Positions 13,741 to 30,873 of a stretch of 64,000 nt of DNA are shown here, in pieces. Under the pieces are notes generated by a model. The model did not search any database. It was not told the origin of the DNA and was given only the letters and a program-made list of their open reading frames with translations. Both the position numbers and the translations under genes were made by a program. Every line of letters begins with the position of its first letter. Within the stretch, counting starts at the first letter, position 1. This DNA comes from a virus: the UHGV virus genome UHGV-1682877; one strand, 5' to 3'.

Positions 13741-14036
13741 ATGGATAATATTATTGAACGAAAAGTTAAAATATTTTGTTGGCATTTTATTATTGATAAA
13801 AAAATGGCTATTTCTTGTTTAGAAGATTTTTGAATAATATTAATGATATTTCTTTTTATATTTTTACAAGCACTCATAATGATGTTATTCATTTTAAAAT
13901 TAATGAAAAAGAATATGTTCTTTTAATGGGAGATTATTTGGTTTATGATTCTTATTATGAGAATTTTGCTATATTTCATAAACTTCCAAAATATATTCGT
14001 AAAATACAACAAATTGAAAATTTAAAAAATAAATGA
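13741..14036 (+). pseudogene. frameshifted paralog of 13280..13738 (ATG 13741 reads 30 codons to TGA 13831-13833; homology continues in -1 frame as ORF 13815..14036)
   Basis: Both reading frames align with consecutive segments of the upstream paralog; shift lies on a T5 run. Confidence 0.5.
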
Positions 14037-14648: not shown

Positions 14649-14724
14649 AGTGTTGTAGCTCAGTAGGTTAGAGCCAGCGACTTATAATCGCTAGACGTGG
14701 GTTCAAATCCCAACAGCACTACCA
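14649..14724 (+). tRNA. tRNA with anticodon TAT (Ile-type, reads AUA); CCA encoded
   Basis: Hand-folded cloverleaf: acceptor agtgttg/cagcact, D-stem gctc/gagc, anticodon stem agcga/tcgct with loop cTTATAa, T-loop ttcaaat. Confidence 0.7.
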
Positions 14725-14955
14725 TTAATAATTTAAATGTAATAAAAGTTTGATGTATACAAATGTTGCGTCATTTGAATCCCTCCCTTTGCTACAATCA
14801 ACGTTTGATTTACATTTGGAAAAAGTGATAGAAAATCACATGGAATTACTTTTAGCCAACCGAGTATCAATGTTATTAACTAAAACTTTTTCACTTTTAT
14901 ATTAACTTTTAAATTATATCTTTTAGTTTGCGGTCTAAATTGTAAAACCGCATAT

Positions 14956-15033
14956 GGCACTGTAGCCCAATCGGAAGCAGGCAGTAGACTTAAAATCTAT
15001 TCAGTGTGGGTTCGAGTCCCATCAGTGCTACCA
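14956..15033 (+). tRNA. atypical tRNA: anticodon TAA (Leu-type) but short variable loop; CCA encoded
   Basis: Acceptor ggcactg/cagtgct, anticodon stem gtaga/tctat with loop cTTAAAa, T-arm gtgggttcgagtcccat identical to Leu(TAA) at 25100; identity uncertain. Confidence 0.55.
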
Positions 15034-15179: not shown

Positions 15180-15215
15180 TTGACTTTAATTAATAAATAT
15201 GTTATAATATTTATA
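15180..15215 (+). promoter_or_regulatory. sigma70-like promoter (-35 TTGACT 15180-15185, -10 TATAAT 15203-15208)
   Basis: Consensus -35 with 17-bp spacing. Confidence 0.65.
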
Positions 15216-15234: not shown

Positions 15235-15316
15235 GTTGGATTGATGGAATGGTAGACATAGTAGCCTTAGAAGCTACCGCGTAAGCGTAAGAGTTCAAGT
15301 CTCTTATCCAACACCA
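15235..15316 (+). tRNA. tRNA-Leu (anticodon TAG), type II with long variable arm; CCA encoded
   Basis: Acceptor gttggat/atccaac, D-loop gaatggtaga, anticodon loop cTTAGAa, variable arm cgcgtaagcgt, T-arm aagagttcaagtctctt. Confidence 0.8.
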
Positions 15317-15340
15317 TTAGACAGACACAGCAATCTTTAT

Positions 15341-15410
15341 ACAAGTAACGACATGCAGGTTCGATTCCTGTCTTTACGCATCTGTAAAGTAGCCTATTGG
15401 TAAGGTATTT
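15341..15410 (+). ncRNA. tRNA-like element without canonical cloverleaf (T-arm gcaggttcgattcctgt, then closed hairpin ctttac/gtaaag, then D-loop-like tattggtaa)
   Basis: T-arm consensus present but no acceptor or anticodon pairing could be found; same architecture as the element at 26395-26520. Confidence 0.3.
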
Positions 15411-15442
15411 ATTTTGTTTAAAGCTGTCTAGTAAATCTCAAT

Positions 15443-16087: not shown

Positions 16088-16209
16088 GAGACATAATCAA
16101 CCACCTCCACGCGGTATGTCTTGGGTAAAGCGAACGGTTGAATGATTTTGGGTACATTTGGATAATTTAGTAGCCAAAAAAACTCCATAATATAATGGAG
16201 GGATGTATA

Positions 16210-25099: not shown

Positions 25100-25185
25100 G
25101 TGGGCGTGATGAAATAGGAAAACATATCGCACTTAAAATGCGCTGCTAATCTAGCTTGTGGGTTCGAGTCCCATCGCCCACACCA
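25100..25185 (+). tRNA. tRNA-Leu (anticodon TAA), type II; CCA encoded
   Basis: Acceptor gtgggcg/cgcccac, anticodon loop cTTAAAa, variable-arm hairpin gcta-atc-tagc, T-arm gtgggttcgagtcccat. Confidence 0.7.
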
Positions 25186-25745: not shown

Positions 25746-25821
25746 GCTAACGTGGCGCAACAGGTAGCGCAGCGGCCTTGTAAACCGCAGGTTAAGAGTT
25801 CAAGTCTCTTCGTTAGCTCCA
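25746..25821 (+). tRNA. tRNA-Thr (anticodon TGT); CCA encoded
   Basis: Acceptor gctaacg/cgttagc, anticodon stem gcggc/accgc with loop cTTGTAa, T-arm aagagttcaagtctctt. Confidence 0.85.
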
Positions 25822-26570: not shown

Positions 26571-28094
26571 ATGGAAAATAAGATGCTTAATATTTTGAAG
26601 GAAAAGAATACTCATTCTATCACTGAGAACGGCGGTTTGACTTATAATTCTACTATGAATGGAATTATGGATTTGTTTGCTCTTGGTGGTGCTTATCGAA
26701 ATCGCTCAGATGATGATTGTATTTTTCTTTTTAAGAAGGCTTTTGAGGAAGATATTTCTTATGCTTTGAAGTGTCTCTTTTATTTGCGAGACGTACGCGG
26801 TGGACAGGGAGAACGCAGATTTTTTAAGGTCGTAACTTCTTGGTTGGCAGTTAATCACACCGAGGAAATGCGTAGAAATCTGAAGTATGTTCCTGAGTAT
26901 GGTCGCTGGGATGATTTGTATGCTTTTGTTGATACTCCGCTTGAGGCAGATGCTTTTAAGACTATGTATCATCAGCTTGCTCTTGATGTTCAGTGTAAAA
27001 CTCCTTCTCTTTTGGCTAAGTGGTTGAAGTCTGAAAATACTTCTTCTGCAGAATCTCGTATGCTTGGAGCTAAAACCAGAATGGCTTTTAATATGTCTCC
27101 TAAGCAGTATCGCAAGATTCTCTCTATTCTTCGTGAAAGAATTAGAGTTTTGGAAAGACTGATGAGTGAAAACCGTTGGGATGAAATTGAATTTGATAAG
27201 ATTCCTTCTAAGGCAGGTCTAAAGTATCGCAATGCTTTTGCAAAGCACGATATTGAAAGAGAAAAGTCTAATAAGGTAACTTATGAAGAGTTTGTAAAGG
27301 ATTCTAATACTAAGGTCAATGCTGATACTTTGAATCCCGCAGATGTAGTTCATGCTGTTGTTTCTAAATTTCCCTATTATAGAGGAAATTTTAATGGAAC
27401 TGATGTGGAGAGAGCTGCACTCAATAAGTATTGGGATAATCTAAAGGATTATTTTAATAATGCTGTTTTTGACGGTGTTGCTGTCGTTGATACTTCTGGT
27501 TCTATGTGTGGTTTTTATGGTAGTGAGAAAACTATTGCACCTATTGATGTAGCTATTTCTCTTGGTATGTATTGTGCTGAGAAGTGTAATCCCAATTCTC
27601 CCTGGTATGGACATTATATTACTTTTTCCCGAACTGCAAGATTGGTACCTGTTGAAGGTATTGATTTTGTTGATAAGGTGCGTAGAATTTATCAAAAGAA
27701 TCTTTGTGAGAATACCAACATTAAAAGTATTTTTGATTTGCTATTGAGCAATGCTATTAAATATAATATTCCTAATGAAGAAATGCCTAAAAACATTGTA
27801 ATCATTAGTGATATGGAATTTGATTATTGCGCTGGTTACTATAATAGTGATGAATACAAGTCTGAAATGGAAAAGATTATGCAAGTTTGGAACTCTCATG
27901 GTTACACTACTCCACATTTGATTTTCTGGAATGTTGACGCTCGAAATGATAATATTCCCATGAAGATGAAGGATGGTATTACTTTTATTTCTGGTTATTC
28001 TGCGGTAACTTATGAAATGTTGATGACTGGTAAAACTGGTTTTGATTTGGTTTTGGAAAAGTTGAACAATAAGAGATATGAGGTAATCAAGTAA
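26571..28094 (+). CDS. vWA-domain protein with Ro60/Rsr-like (TROVE + vWA) architecture
   Basis: 507 aa; MIDAS-type VVDTSGSM about 300 aa from N-terminus; N-terminal ENGGLTY ... LGGAYR resembles TROVE start; AAAAGGAGAA SD. Confidence 0.5.
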   Translation: MENKMLNILKEKNTHSITENGGLTYNSTMNGIMDLFALGGAYRNRSDDDCIFLFKKAFEEDISYALKCLFYLRDVRGGQGERRFFKVVTSWLAVNHTEEMRRNLKYVPEYGRWDDLYAFVDTPLEADAFKTMYHQLALDVQCKTPSLLAKWLKSENTSSAESRMLGAKTRMAFNMSPKQYRKILSILRERIRVLERLMSENRWDEIEFDKIPSKAGLKYRNAFAKHDIEREKSNKVTYEEFVKDSNTKVNADTLNPADVVHAVVSKFPYYRGNFNGTDVERAALNKYWDNLKDYFNNAVFDGVAVVDTSGSMCGFYGSEKTIAPIDVAISLGMYCAEKCNPNSPWYGHYITFSRTARLVPVEGIDFVDKVRRIYQKNLCENTNIKSIFDLLLSNAIKYNIPNEEMPKNIVIISDMEFDYCAGYYNSDEYKSEMEKIMQVWNSHGYTTPHLIFWNVDARNDNIPMKMKDGITFISGYSAVTYEMLMTGKTGFDLVLEKLNNKRYEVIK

Positions 28095-29585: not shown

Positions 29586-29604
29586 ATAAAGGAGTTTGAT
29601 ATTT

Positions 29605-30873
29605 ATGGCATACTATGGTTTAGTAACTAAAATTGAAAATGTAAGAAAAGACCCTAATTCTGATAGACTCTATTTGGCTGATTGTTTTAGAGAAGGAGTT
29701 ATTGTAGGCCCTAATATGAAGGAAAGCGAGTTGGTTCTTTATCTTCCTACTGATGGAGCTATTGAGCGTTGGTTTGGTGATGAGTTTAAACTTTTCCGCA
29801 AGAATTTAGATGGTACCGCGCAAGGTGGTTATTTGGAAAATAATGCTCATATTAGAGCAATTAAGCTAAGAGGTAATGAATCTTCTGGTATTGTTATTTC
29901 TTATTCTACTATTGTTGAGCATTTTGGTGAGCAAAATTGGAAAGATGGCGATCAGGTCACTGAAATTAATAATAAGCTATTTTGTTATAAATATATTCCT
30001 AAACCTTCGGCTATTCCTCGCACTACTCCTAAAACTTCTTATAAAGGTCGTAAAGCAGCTGGAATTAAGTATCCTGATTTTGCCATGCATATTGATACTG
30101 CCCAATTAGCTTACAATCTTGGAATTTTTAGACCTGGAGATAAAATTAATCTAACCCTTAAAATGCATGGAACTAGCCAGCGTAGTGCATATACTTGGGC
30201 AGAATATCCTATGTCTTGGTTTAGAAAGCTATTTCACATGAAACCTAAGAGAAAGTTGCAGTATGTTTTAGGTACTCGTAGAACTGTTGTTACTACTGAT
30301 GGGGTAGGTTATTATGGTAATGACAAATTTAGATTTAGTCACCATGAAGCTTTAAAACCTTATCTCGATGAAGGTATGGAAGTTTTTTATGAAGTAGTTG
30401 GTTGGTATGGAGCAAAAGAAAATGAAACTATTATGCCAATTGTAGATAATAGTAAAATTAATGACAAGAAATTTATGAAAAAGTTTGGTAAGTATACTAC
30501 TTTTTCTTATGGTTGTACTCCTGGTCATTCTGCAATGTGGATTTATAGAATTACTTCTCATAATGGTGAATATGAATATTCTCCAGAGGAAATTACTACT
30601 TGGTGTAATGAATATGGTTTTAATCGTGTTCCTATTATTGAGGATTTTGAATTTACTACTGTTGATGACTTGCTCGCTAAAATTGACAAATATTTTGAAG
30701 ATATTGTTGACCCAGTTGGTTTAACTCATGTTAAAGAAGGTGTAGTAGTTAGAATTGCTAATAGACGTACTTTTACTGCATTAAAACAAAAAACCTGGGA
30801 GTTTAAAGTCCTTGAAGGTCTAGTTAAAGATACTGAAACCCAGCCCGATATGGAAGAAGCACAGGAGGTTTAA
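29605..30873 (+). CDS. ATP-dependent RNA ligase-like protein (Rnl2/Rnl5-type KxHGT motif) with N-terminal extra domain
   Basis: KMHGTS resembles nucleotidyltransferase motif I of T4 Rnl2 (KIHGTN); N-terminal region has OB/tRNA-binding-like motif IKLRGNESSGIV; ATG 29605 after AAAGGAG. Confidence 0.5.
   Translation: MAYYGLVTKIENVRKDPNSDRLYLADCFREGVIVGPNMKESELVLYLPTDGAIERWFGDEFKLFRKNLDGTAQGGYLENNAHIRAIKLRGNESSGIVISYSTIVEHFGEQNWKDGDQVTEINNKLFCYKYIPKPSAIPRTTPKTSYKGRKAAGIKYPDFAMHIDTAQLAYNLGIFRPGDKINLTLKMHGTSQRSAYTWAEYPMSWFRKLFHMKPKRKLQYVLGTRRTVVTTDGVGYYGNDKFRFSHHEALKPYLDEGMEVFYEVVGWYGAKENETIMPIVDNSKINDKKFMKKFGKYTTFSYGCTPGHSAMWIYRITSHNGEYEYSPEEITTWCNEYGFNRVPIIEDFEFTTVDDLLAKIDKYFEDIVDPVGLTHVKEGVVVRIANRRTFTALKQKTWEFKVLEGLVKDTETQPDMEEAQEV

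What the first reader, a model, noticed from the sequence alone, without database searches (positions are those of the whole stretch)
14956..15033. Type-I tRNA carrying a Leu-type UAA anticodon with the same T-arm as the genuine tRNA-Leu(TAA)
The 14956 tRNA folds with a short (5-nt) variable loop and anticodon loop cUUAAAa, yet bacterial Leu tRNAs are type II. Its T-arm (gtgggttcgagtcccat) and anticodon loop are identical to those of the long-arm tRNA-Leu(TAA) at 25100-25185. It could be a variable-arm deletion derivative with altered identity, so its charging is unpredictable.
Basis: partly seen in the sequence, partly recalled or inferred. Interest (0 to 1): 0.45.

Follow-up and report, generated by a model that had tools for sequence, protein, structure and literature searches.

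The report
Short-armed leucine tRNA in a phage
The gene is a real leucine tRNA that lacks the usual long extra arm; it belongs to a large, already-annotated family of such tRNAs common in phages and in actinobacterial chromosomes, so it is unusual by the textbook but ordinary in practice.

Summary
Positions 14956-15033 (+) encode a 78-nt tRNA with a 5-nt variable loop, anticodon UAA, A73 and an encoded CCA. It shares a 19-nt T-arm stretch and the anticodon loop with the long-arm tRNA-Leu(UAA) at 25100-25185.

The interpretation does not hold. The tRNA is not a local arm-deletion derivative. It is 81-84% identical to short tRNA-Leu genes of unrelated phages (cyanophage P-RSM6 and P-SSM7, Shigella phage Sf14), but only 68% identical to the local long-arm gene once that gene's arm is trimmed.

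An anticodon-independent D-arm signature picks out 77 tRNAs in viral contigs and 73 in bacterial genomes. All are 73-78 nt, and 147 of the 150 carry one of the six Leu anticodons. In genomes they are mostly single chromosomal genes of Actinomycetota.

With its anticodon masked, the window tRNA scores 44-50 bits against short-Leu profiles and at most 24 bits against any other isotype. A homologous type I tRNALeu of Streptomyces coelicolor is leucylated in published experiments. tRNAscan-SE ranks the Sf14 homologues as Leu.

Most likely function: a leucine-accepting reader of UUA and UUG. UUA makes up 49% of this phage's Leu codons. Charging by the unknown host's LeuRS remains untested.

The parts
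14956..15033 (+). Type I (short variable loop) tRNA-Leu(UAA) gene, with A73 and an encoded CCA
   Evidence: ARAGORN. Rfam tRNA model 57.1 bits. Type I Leu profile 57.1 bits, next-best hit in the window 18.4 bits. Conserved in L016 with 1 substitution.
14965..14982 (+). D arm GCCC-AATCGGAAGC-AGGC: 3-bp stem, C13.A22 mismatch, A14 A15, G18 G19. One nucleotide longer than the family consensus (GG-N-AG-A-GGC).
   Evidence: Sequence. Alignment A2. The same D-arm variant occurs in 9 other viral contigs, all short tRNA-Leu(taa).
14991..14993 (+). Anticodon TAA (reads UUA, and UUG by wobble) in the 7-nt loop CTTAAAA (14989-14995)
   Evidence: The middle anticodon base A is invariant in the 65-sequence family alignment.
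15001..15005 (+). 5-nt variable loop TCAGT; its last base (U48) can pair with A15 (Levitt pair)
   Evidence: A15/U48 is present in 99-100% of type I Leu and 92% of type II Leu tRNAs sampled.
15005..15023 (+). 19-nt stretch covering the T arm, identical to 25157-25175 in the type II tRNA-Leu(UAA)
25100..25185 (+). Type II (long-arm) tRNA-Leu(UAA), a second gene with the same anticodon; used as the comparator
   Evidence: Type II Leu profile 46.9 bits. Identical in the relative L262.
14930..14951 (+). Conserved hairpin GCGGTCTAAATTGTAAAACCGC four bases upstream of the tRNA; role unknown (possibly a processing or termination element)
   Evidence: Sequence. Invariant between the window and L016. 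Function not tested.

Best explanation
14956-15033 encodes a functional tRNA-Leu(UAA) of the arm-less (type I) kind. It belongs to an old, tightly conserved lineage of short leucine tRNAs carried by many tailed phages (of cyanobacteria, enterobacteria, enterococci and actinobacteria) and by Actinomycetota chromosomes.

Inferred mechanism:
- It is transcribed within the phage's first tRNA cluster and processed by host RNase P and 3' nucleases. CCA is already encoded.
- It is charged with leucine by the host LeuRS. Bacterial LeuRS does not read the anticodon. It relies on the discriminator A73 and on the tRNA core and elbow (A14, A15-U48, G18G19-U55C56). All of these are present here.
- It then decodes UUA (and UUG), the commonest Leu codon of this 30%-GC phage, alongside a type II gene with the same anticodon.

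Shown: the gene, its fold, its family membership, the family's restriction to Leu anticodons, and purifying selection.
Inferred: expression, leucylation in this host, and any benefit of the short arm.
For: - **Fold and gene calls.**
- **Purifying selection.** One substitution in the tRNA against heavy indels in the 3' spacer in relative L016.
- **The family is real and structured.** In a 65-sequence alignment, 98.3% of cells are paired and 16 of 20 pairs show compensatory changes. The covariation score is 0.858 against 0.20 in shuffles and at most 0.15 for slid registers.
- **Leu identity of the family.**
  - The anticodon-independent pattern TAGCCCAA-N1-3-GG-N-AGAGGC finds 77 tRNAs in viral contigs. 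All are 73-78 nt, and 75 have Leu anticodons (taa 31, tag 21, caa 15, aag 4, gag 3, cag 1). By comparison, 50 of the 645 other tRNAs in the same loci are Leu.
  - The same pattern finds 73 tRNAs in genomes. All are 74-78 nt, and 72 have Leu anticodons.
- **Identity elements.** A73 in 75 of 76 family members. A15-U48 in 99-100%. The window tRNA has both.
- **Isotype surrogate.** With the anticodon masked, the window tRNA scores 50.3, 45.4 and 44.0 bits against three short-Leu profiles. The best non-Leu scores are Lys 23.9 and Arg 23.5.
- **Published data.**
  - S. coelicolor type I tRNALeu(CAA), with a 5-nt variable loop, is leucylated by its LeuRS (PMC6614811).
  - tRNAscan-SE 2.0 ranks Leu highest for the three Sf14 Leu tRNAs (PMC12482277). 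I verified that these are 77-79 nt and type I. Sf14 Leu(TAG) is 81% identical to the window tRNA.
- **Demand.** TTA is 48.8% of Leu codons, 40.6 per 1000 codons, in 40 window ORFs.
Against: - No expression or charging data exist for this tRNA or this phage. The host is unknown; the closest isolates are SPbeta-like Bacillus phages, at only 38% protein identity on DnaE.
- In vitro, E. coli LeuRS did not leucylate the S. coelicolor type I tRNALeu(CAA), and the authors tie type I charging to a Streptomyces-specific LeuRS feature (PMC6614811). Charging by a non-actinobacterial LeuRS therefore cannot be taken for granted.
- The window tRNA has a D loop one nucleotide longer than the family consensus.
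- The phage already has a type II tRNA-Leu(UAA), so the type I copy is not obviously needed.
Confidence: 0.8

Rival explanations
1. Recent local derivative: the gene arose in this phage lineage from the type II tRNA-Leu(UAA) at 25100 by loss of the variable arm, and may have drifted to a new or undefined identity.
For: An identical 19-nt T-arm stretch and an identical 7-nt anticodon loop. This T arm (G49.U65, loop UUCGAGU) differs at two positions from the family's usual GTGGGTTCRAATCCCAC. Among 19 long Leu(taa) genes of related phages it occurs only in this lineage.
Against: Acceptor, D and anticodon stems are all different. Identity is 68% after cutting the arm, against 81-84% to type I Leu tRNAs of unrelated phages. 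The D-arm variant is shared with 9 other viral contigs that have other acceptor stems. T-arm sharing also occurs between non-isoacceptors in this window: Leu(tag) and Thr(tgt) share 18 nt. Shared stretches of 19 nt or more occur in 0.22% of within-locus tRNA pairs. At most a short gene-conversion tract is needed to explain the shared T arm.
Confidence: 0.04
2. The tRNA carries a Leu anticodon but does not supply leucine. Either it is mischarged with another amino acid (missense recoding of UUA/UUG), or the host LeuRS charges it poorly and it acts as a decoy or competitor for host tRNA-targeting defence enzymes.
For: E. coli LeuRS failed on a type I tRNALeu in vitro (PMC6614811). The phage invests in tRNA maintenance, with an RNA ligase at 29596-30873 and a Ro60-like protein at 26571-28094. 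Phage tRNAs are known to bypass tRNA-targeting defences (discussed in PMC11559606). A type II gene with the same anticodon coexists with it.
Against: The family spans both Leu codon boxes and essentially nothing else. That pattern is hard to reconcile with any non-Leu identity. In Actinomycetota these are ordinary single chromosomal Leu tRNA genes. Some phages carry only type I Leu tRNAs: Sf14 and Erwinia phage Hena2 have three each. A73 and A15-U48 are conserved. The S. coelicolor homologue is leucylated (PMC6614811).
Confidence: 0.12
3. Decaying pseudogene or chance tRNA-like sequence.
For: The minimum-free-energy fold of the isolated sequence is not a cloverleaf, and its energy is unremarkable (z = -1.4).
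Against: All four stems are intact, with conserved U8, A14, G18G19, a T loop, A73 and CCA. Rfam scores it 57 bits. It is conserved while its flank diverges. Minimum-free-energy folding commonly misses the cloverleaf of unmodified tRNA sequences (general knowledge).
Confidence: 0.03

Closest known systems
Streptomyces coelicolor type I tRNALeu(CAA) (Fan et al., NAR 2019, PMC6614811)
   Same: A bacterial-type tRNA with a Leu anticodon and a 5-nt variable loop (ACAGC there, UCAGU here). It coexists in one cell with type II tRNALeu and has U8-A14 and G18G19. It is leucylated experimentally. Actinomycetota chromosomal genes retrieved here with the D-arm signature give a profile that scores the window tRNA at 45-53 bits.
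   Different: The anticodon is CAA, not UAA, and the gene is chromosomal, not phage-borne. I could not retrieve the S. coelicolor sequence itself, so direct identity was not measured. That paper finds A73 dispensable for ScoLeuRS and links type I charging to a Streptomyces LeuRS feature, which may not exist in this phage's host.
Short tRNA-Leu genes annotated in isolated phages: cyanophages P-RSM6 and P-SSM7, Shigella phage Sf14 and other Ounavirinae, Erwinia Kolesnikvirus, Enterococcus Schiekvirus, Streptomyces and Mycobacterium phages
   Same: 73-79 nt long, with the same D arm, variable loop (N-CAG-U) and T arm. Identity to the window tRNA is 77-84%. BLAST with a family member finds matches in 400 phage records; nearly all of the 60 rows listed are annotated tRNA-Leu. 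tRNAscan-SE ranks Leu first for the Sf14 genes (PMC12482277).
   Different: The window gene has one extra D-loop nucleotide, a G49.U65 T stem, and sits in an uncultured 30%-GC phage. Several of those phages carry only type I Leu tRNAs, whereas this one has both types with the same anticodon.
Canonical bacterial type II tRNALeu (e.g. E. coli tRNALeu(UAA))
   Same: A73, A14, the A15-U48 pair, G18G19, and a 3-bp D stem with a purine-22 mismatch. G1.U72 is also shared; PMC6614811 mentions this pair for the E. coli tRNALeu(UAA)-LeuRS structure. The anticodon loop is of the same kind, with U33, U34, A35, A36, A37.
   Different: No long variable arm (5 nt rather than 13 or more). The type II Leu profile gives only 24.1 bits, against 41.6-55.9 bits for the window's three type II genes.
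Animal mitochondrial type I tRNALeu(UUR)
   Same: An arm-less tRNA with a UAA anticodon that is charged with leucine. Human mitochondrial LeuRS also charged the S. coelicolor type I tRNA (PMC6614811).
   Different: Not compared by sequence here. ScoLeuRS does not charge the human mitochondrial tRNA, which suggests different identity sets. No evidence of common descent.

Membership tests
Type I (arm-less) tRNALeu lineage of phages and Actinomycetota | Cloverleaf with a 4-5 nt variable loop instead of a long arm | tested here: met
   5-nt loop UCAGU. The same register is supported by covariation in the family alignment: 98.3% paired, score 0.858 against 0.20 in shuffles.
Type I (arm-less) tRNALeu lineage of phages and Actinomycetota | Leu anticodon (NAA or NAG) in a 7-nt loop | tested here: met
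   UAA at 14991-14993 in the loop CUUAAAA. 147 of 150 family members carry Leu anticodons.
Type I (arm-less) tRNALeu lineage of phages and Actinomycetota | D-arm signature U8 A9 GCCC AA-N1-3-GG-N-AG-A-GGC (3-bp stem, C13.A22) | tested here: met
   Present with a one-base insertion (GGAAGCAGGC instead of GGNAGAGGC). This exact variant occurs in 9 other viral contigs, all short Leu(taa).
Type I (arm-less) tRNALeu lineage of phages and Actinomycetota | Discriminator A73 and A15-U48 pair | tested here: met
   A73 at 15030, A15, U48. Family: A73 in 75 of 76, A15/U48 in 99-100%.
Type I (arm-less) tRNALeu lineage of phages and Actinomycetota | Scores higher with the family profile than with any other isotype profile, anticodon masked | tested here: met
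   50.3, 45.4 and 44.0 bits against at most 23.9 bits for non-Leu profiles. These are home-made HMMs, not tRNAscan-SE isotype models.
Type I (arm-less) tRNALeu lineage of phages and Actinomycetota | Accepts leucine | not testable with these tools
   Shown only for the S. coelicolor homologue (PMC6614811). E. coli LeuRS failed on that substrate.
Canonical bacterial type II tRNALeu | Long variable arm (more than 10 nt, with a stem) | tested here: not met
   5-nt loop. Type II profile 24.1 bits against 41.6-55.9 bits for the three true type II genes.
Stop-codon suppressor or recoding tRNA | Anticodon complementary to a stop codon, or an irregular anticodon loop | tested here: not met
   Standard 7-nt loop with U33. 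The anticodon UAA pairs with UUA/UUG, not with a stop codon.

The most novel reading that the evidence does not exclude
Arm-less tRNALeu is a phage-spread variant with its own adaptive value. Shedding the long arm, while keeping A73 and the Leu-type core, would let it still be charged by LeuRS of many phyla, including hosts whose own Leu tRNAs are all type II. That would contradict the single in vitro result with E. coli LeuRS. It would also let it escape host nucleases or other tRNA-targeting defence enzymes that recognise type II or host Leu tRNAs. This would explain why a phage keeps a type I and a type II gene with the same anticodon next to RNA-repair genes.
Probability: 0.15. Interest if true: 0.55.

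Novelty: new member of a known kind. Interest (0 to 1): 0.22.

Why it matters
For annotation, it settles that this gene should be called tRNA-Leu(UAA), not flagged as a tRNA of doubtful identity. It also corrects the rule of thumb that bacterial-type Leu tRNAs always have a long arm.

More broadly, the survey shows that arm-less Leu tRNAs with one conserved body are widespread. BLAST with a family member matches 400 isolated-phage records. The D-arm pattern scan hit its 120-stretch limit both in viral contigs and in bacterial genomes, the latter mostly Actinomycetota. These phages include ones whose hosts use only type II Leu tRNAs, such as E. coli and Shigella.

The only biochemical study reports that E. 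coli LeuRS does not charge such a tRNA. I found no paper that treats the phage family as such. How these tRNAs are charged, and why phages favour them, is therefore a small, tractable open question, best tested in E. coli phages such as Sf14 or Felix O1 relatives.

Tried and rejected
- **Megablast of the tRNA cluster against isolated phages.** No hit, so there is no close cultured relative.
- **Minimum-free-energy folding of the single sequence.** It gives a non-cloverleaf fold with z = -1.4. This is uninformative for tRNAs.
- **A loose D-loop motif (AA-N1-3-GG-N-AGA) as a Leu marker.** It is also frequent in Lys and Asn tRNAs, so I used the full D-arm signature and whole-body profiles instead.
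- **Shared T arm as evidence of descent or gene conversion.** A 19-nt match is rare per pair (0.22%). But another non-isoacceptor pair in the same window shares 18 nt, and the close relative has both genes unchanged, so the direction and cause cannot be resolved.
- **In vivo evidence from mycobacteriophage Gaia.** Its tRNA-Leu(CAA) complements a disrupted host gene (PMC10865867). It turned out to be 83 nt and type II, so it says nothing about type I tRNAs.
- **The S. coelicolor tRNALeu(CAA) sequence.** No supplementary text is held for the paper.
- **A mobile Ile(UAU)-Arg(UCU)-Leu(UAA) module shared with cyanophages.** Rejected. The Ile and Arg tRNAs are only 60-72% identical, which is background, while the Leu tRNAs are 81-84% identical.
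- **Relatives via ORF 23882-24631.** This search missed the sister contig. The Ro-like protein found it.
- **Literature searches.** I found no paper describing phage type I tRNALeu as a family.

Full report
**1. The observation**

ARAGORN finds 17 tRNA genes in the window, in two clusters (14.6-17.7 kb and 25.1-26.4 kb). They include a 78-nt tRNA-Leu(taa) at 14956-15033 and an 86-nt tRNA-Leu(taa) at 25100-25185. Rfam's tRNA model scores the short gene at 57.1 bits, E = 2.3e-10.

Read from the sequence, the gene is GGCACUG-UA-GCCC-AAUCGGAAGC-AGGC-A-GUAGA-CUUAAAA-UCUAU-UCAGU-GUGGG-UUCGAGU-CCCAU-CAGUGCU-A-CCA. Its features are:
- a G1.U72 pair;
- a three-pair D stem with a C13.A22 mismatch;
- a standard 7-nt anticodon loop with UAA at 14991-14993;
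- a 5-nt variable loop;
- A73 and an encoded CCA, as in most tRNAs of this phage.

The stretch TGTGGGTTCGAGTCCCATC (15005-15023) recurs exactly at 25157-25175 in the long-arm gene, and both genes have the loop CTTAAAA.

**2. Context**

The window is about 30% G+C, and nearly all long ORFs lie on the + strand. It encodes phage-type functions:
- a DnaE-like polymerase, topoisomerase II/gyrase subunits and NrdD;
- a GIY-YIG homing endonuclease;
- a Ro60-like 'RNA-binding protein' (DUF2828/DUF7788);
- an RNA ligase;
- an SLH-domain protease.

No isolated phage is close. Megablast finds nothing, and the best DnaE match is 38% to SPbeta-like Bacillus phages. The host is unknown, though a Firmicute is plausible.

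A sister contig in IMG/VR (loci L016 and L262; 94-98% protein identity on two genes) carries the same tRNA clusters. Its copy of the short Leu gene differs by one base, C17 to U, which moves it toward the family consensus. The spacer just downstream has diverged by many indels. That is the signature of purifying selection on the tRNA.

**3. What it is related to**

A sensitive BLAST of the gene against isolated phages hits 140 records. Nearly all of the 30 rows listed are annotated tRNA-Leu. The six I fetched and checked with ARAGORN are 73-78 nt long. They come from cyanophages P-RSM6 and P-SSM7, Erwinia Kolesnikvirus, Streptomyces and Mycobacterium phages, and Enterococcus Schiekvirus. These carry the same body with anticodons taa, caa, tag and aag.

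To avoid circularity I searched with a D-arm pattern that contains no anticodon, TAGCCCAA-N1-3-GG-N-AGAGGC.
- **Viral contigs.** In the 80 loci returned, 77 tRNAs carry the pattern. All are 73-78 nt, and 75 have Leu anticodons (taa 31, tag 21, caa 15, aag 4, gag 3, cag 1). The other two have ambiguous anticodon calls. Among the 645 other tRNAs of the same loci, only 50 are Leu.
- **Bacterial genomes.** The scan again hit its limit. Here 73 tRNAs carry the pattern, all 74-78 nt, and 72 have Leu anticodons. Most are solitary chromosomal genes of Actinomycetota, including Mycobacterium, Nocardia, Rhodococcus, Corynebacterium and Arthrobacter.

A body that carries all six Leu anticodons from two codon boxes, and essentially nothing else, is a leucine-specific body.

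**4. Structure and identity elements**

In a 65-sequence alignment (64 viral members plus the window gene), the type I cloverleaf is 98.3% paired. Sixteen of 20 pairs show changes on both sides. The covariation score is 0.858, against 0.20 in shuffles and at most 0.15 when the 3' partners are slid.

The discriminator is A in 75 of 76 members, and G1.U72 occurs in roughly 40-45%. The A15-U48 pair is one of the E. coli tRNALeu recognition elements listed in PMC6614811. It is present in 99-100% of type I Leu tRNAs, 92% of type II Leu tRNAs, and 18-81% of other isotypes. The window gene has A14, A15, G18G19, U48 and A73.

Its D loop is one nucleotide longer than the consensus (GGAAGC-AGGC instead of GG-N-AG-AGGC). 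That variant recurs in nine other viral contigs with different, compensated acceptor and anticodon stems, all with anticodon taa.

**5. Surrogate for isotype models**

tRNAscan-SE is not available here. I built profile HMMs per isotype from the tRNAs collected above and scored the window tRNA with its anticodon masked.

| Profile | Bits (anticodon masked) |
|---|---|
| Type I Leu, viral | 50.3 |
| Type I Leu, genomes | 45.4 |
| Short Leu tRNAs not selected by the D-arm pattern | 44.0 |
| Lys | 23.9 |
| Arg | 23.5 |
| Type II Leu | 19.7 |
| All other isotypes | lower |

Conversely, the type I profile hits only 14958-15031 in the window (57.1 bits; next best 18.4). The type II profile ranks the short gene fourth, at 24.1 bits, above every non-Leu tRNA.

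Published tRNAscan-SE 2.0 isotype scores for Shigella phage Sf14 put Leu first for its Leu_TAG, Leu_CAA and Leu_TAA genes: 67.4, 49.1 and 60.2 bits (PMC12482277). I confirmed that these genes are 77-79 nt and type I, and that Sf14 Leu(TAG) is 81% identical to the window gene.

**6. The 'deletion derivative' idea**

Apart from the T arm and the anticodon loop, the two Leu(UAA) genes of the window differ in every stem. Identity is 66% overall and 68% after cutting the long arm to 5 nt, against 81-84% to cyanophage and Sf14 type I genes. The short gene is therefore not a local derivative.

The shared T arm is lineage-specific. The family norm is GTGGGTTCRAATCCCAC, and among 19 long Leu(taa) genes of related phages only the sister contig has GTGGGTTCGAGTCCCAT. 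A short conversion tract or parallel selection may be involved.

This is weak evidence, however. tRNA-Leu(tag) and tRNA-Thr(tgt) of the same window share an 18-nt T arm. Shared stretches of 19 nt or more occur in 0.22% of within-locus pairs, which predicts about 0.3 such pairs per 136 pairs.

**7. How it most likely works**

UUA is the main Leu codon of the phage: 48.8% of Leu codons, 40.6 per 1000 in 40 ORFs. The gene lies in a tRNA cluster with sigma-70-like promoters nearby. The only strong one, at 15180-15208, is downstream and serves tRNA-Leu(tag). Upstream candidates match only 9-10 of 12 consensus positions, and the total is no more than chance would give.

The simplest reading is a second, arm-less supplier of Leu-tRNA(UAA), charged by the host LeuRS through A73 and the tRNA core and elbow. 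Bacterial LeuRS does not use the anticodon. Minimalist-substrate work on E. coli LeuRS found the long arm dispensable; I cite that from my own knowledge and did not check it here. The S. coelicolor type I tRNALeu(CAA) is leucylated with kcat/Km about half that of the type II species (PMC6614811).

The caveat is real. In the same paper E. coli LeuRS did not leucylate that type I tRNA, and the authors attribute type I charging to the Streptomyces enzyme's leucine-specific domain. Yet enterobacterial phages such as Sf14 and Hena2 carry only type I Leu tRNAs, which argues that they are used. I put 0.8 on 'genuine leucine tRNA'. I put about 0.12 on a non-canonical role (poorly charged decoy, or mischarging), and a few per cent each on local derivative and pseudogene.

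**8. Novelty**

Type I tRNALeu in a bacterium is published (PMC6614811). Short tRNA-Leu genes are routinely annotated in phage records: BLAST with a family member matches 400 records. This gene is a new member of a known kind.

Six literature searches found no paper that describes the phage family as such, or asks why phages of hosts with type II Leu tRNAs carry it. That question, not this gene, is the modestly interesting residue.

In the unbiased sample of tRNAs next to Ro-like genes in related phages, 12 of 44 Leu tRNAs are short. They include a second short design with a different D arm (UG-GGCU-AAUUGGUAU-AGCC). This suggests that arm loss, or arm-less designs, arose more than once.

Noticed in passing
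window 16876-16948 (+); L016 13774-13849: A tRNA-like gene with an 8-nt anticodon loop (CUUGAAAA; ARAGORN reports 'anticodon tgaa'), a mismatched acceptor stem and no encoded CCA, unlike its neighbours. Rfam tRNA model scores it 53.1 bits. It is conserved in the sister contig apart from a 1-nt indel after the T arm. It could be a quadruplet or frameshift-type tRNA, or a decaying tRNA-Phe or tRNA-Ser.
   Followed up: partly
window 16195-16842 (+): A GIY-YIG homing endonuclease ORF sits between tRNA-Met and the odd tRNA. The sister contig L016 has only about 30 nt between those two genes (13745 to 13774), so this is a recent insertion into the tRNA cluster.
   Followed up: partly
window 26571-28094 (+), 29596-30873 (+), 15325-15432 (+): A Ro60-like protein (DUF2828 + DUF7788; PHROG 'RNA-binding protein') lies directly after the second tRNA cluster, with an RNA ligase 1.5 kb further on. 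There is also a weak YrlA (Y-RNA-like) match next to tRNA-Leu(tag), at 26.6 bits against a gathering score of 69. Sf14 also has a DUF2828 gene abutting its tRNA cluster. This may be a phage Ro/Y-RNA and tRNA-repair module.
   Followed up: partly
L263-L341 (relatives found through the Ro-like protein): ARAGORN tRNAs with anticodon CUA (reported as 'Pyl') and 46 tRNA-Cys next to the Ro-like gene in related 100-200 kb phage contigs. This hints at amber (TAG) recoding in the group. In the window, none of 40 long ORFs ends in TAG (34 TAA, 6 TGA), and no CUA tRNA lies within the 64 kb.
   Followed up: no
window 15235-15316 and 25746-25821: tRNA-Leu(tag) and tRNA-Thr(tgt) share an identical 18-nt T arm (TAAGAGTTCAAGTCTCTT). 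This is a second case of T-arm sharing between different tRNAs in this phage, which suggests homogenisation among clustered tRNA genes.
   Followed up: partly
L263-L269 (Ro-like protein 68-72% identical to the window's): A 77-nt short tRNA-Leu(caa) with a different D arm (UG-GGCU-AAUUGGUAU-AGCC, variable loop UGUUU) was found next to the Ro-like gene, where the window and its sister contig L262 carry a type II tRNA-Leu(caa). This is a second, distinct arm-less Leu design.
   Followed up: no
window 14649-14724 (+): tRNA-Ile(UAU) lies just upstream of the short Leu gene. Cyanophages P-RSM6 and P-SSM7 have an Ile(UAU)-Arg(UCU)-Leu(UAA, type I) trio. The Ile and Arg genes are only 60-72% identical to the window's, so this is a shared need for A/U-ending codon readers rather than a shared module.
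   Followed up: yes
window 15180-15208 (+): A near-consensus sigma-70 promoter (TTGACT, 17-nt spacer, TG, TATAAT) lies upstream of tRNA-Leu(tag). It is conserved in L016 while the surrounding spacer has diverged.
   Followed up: no
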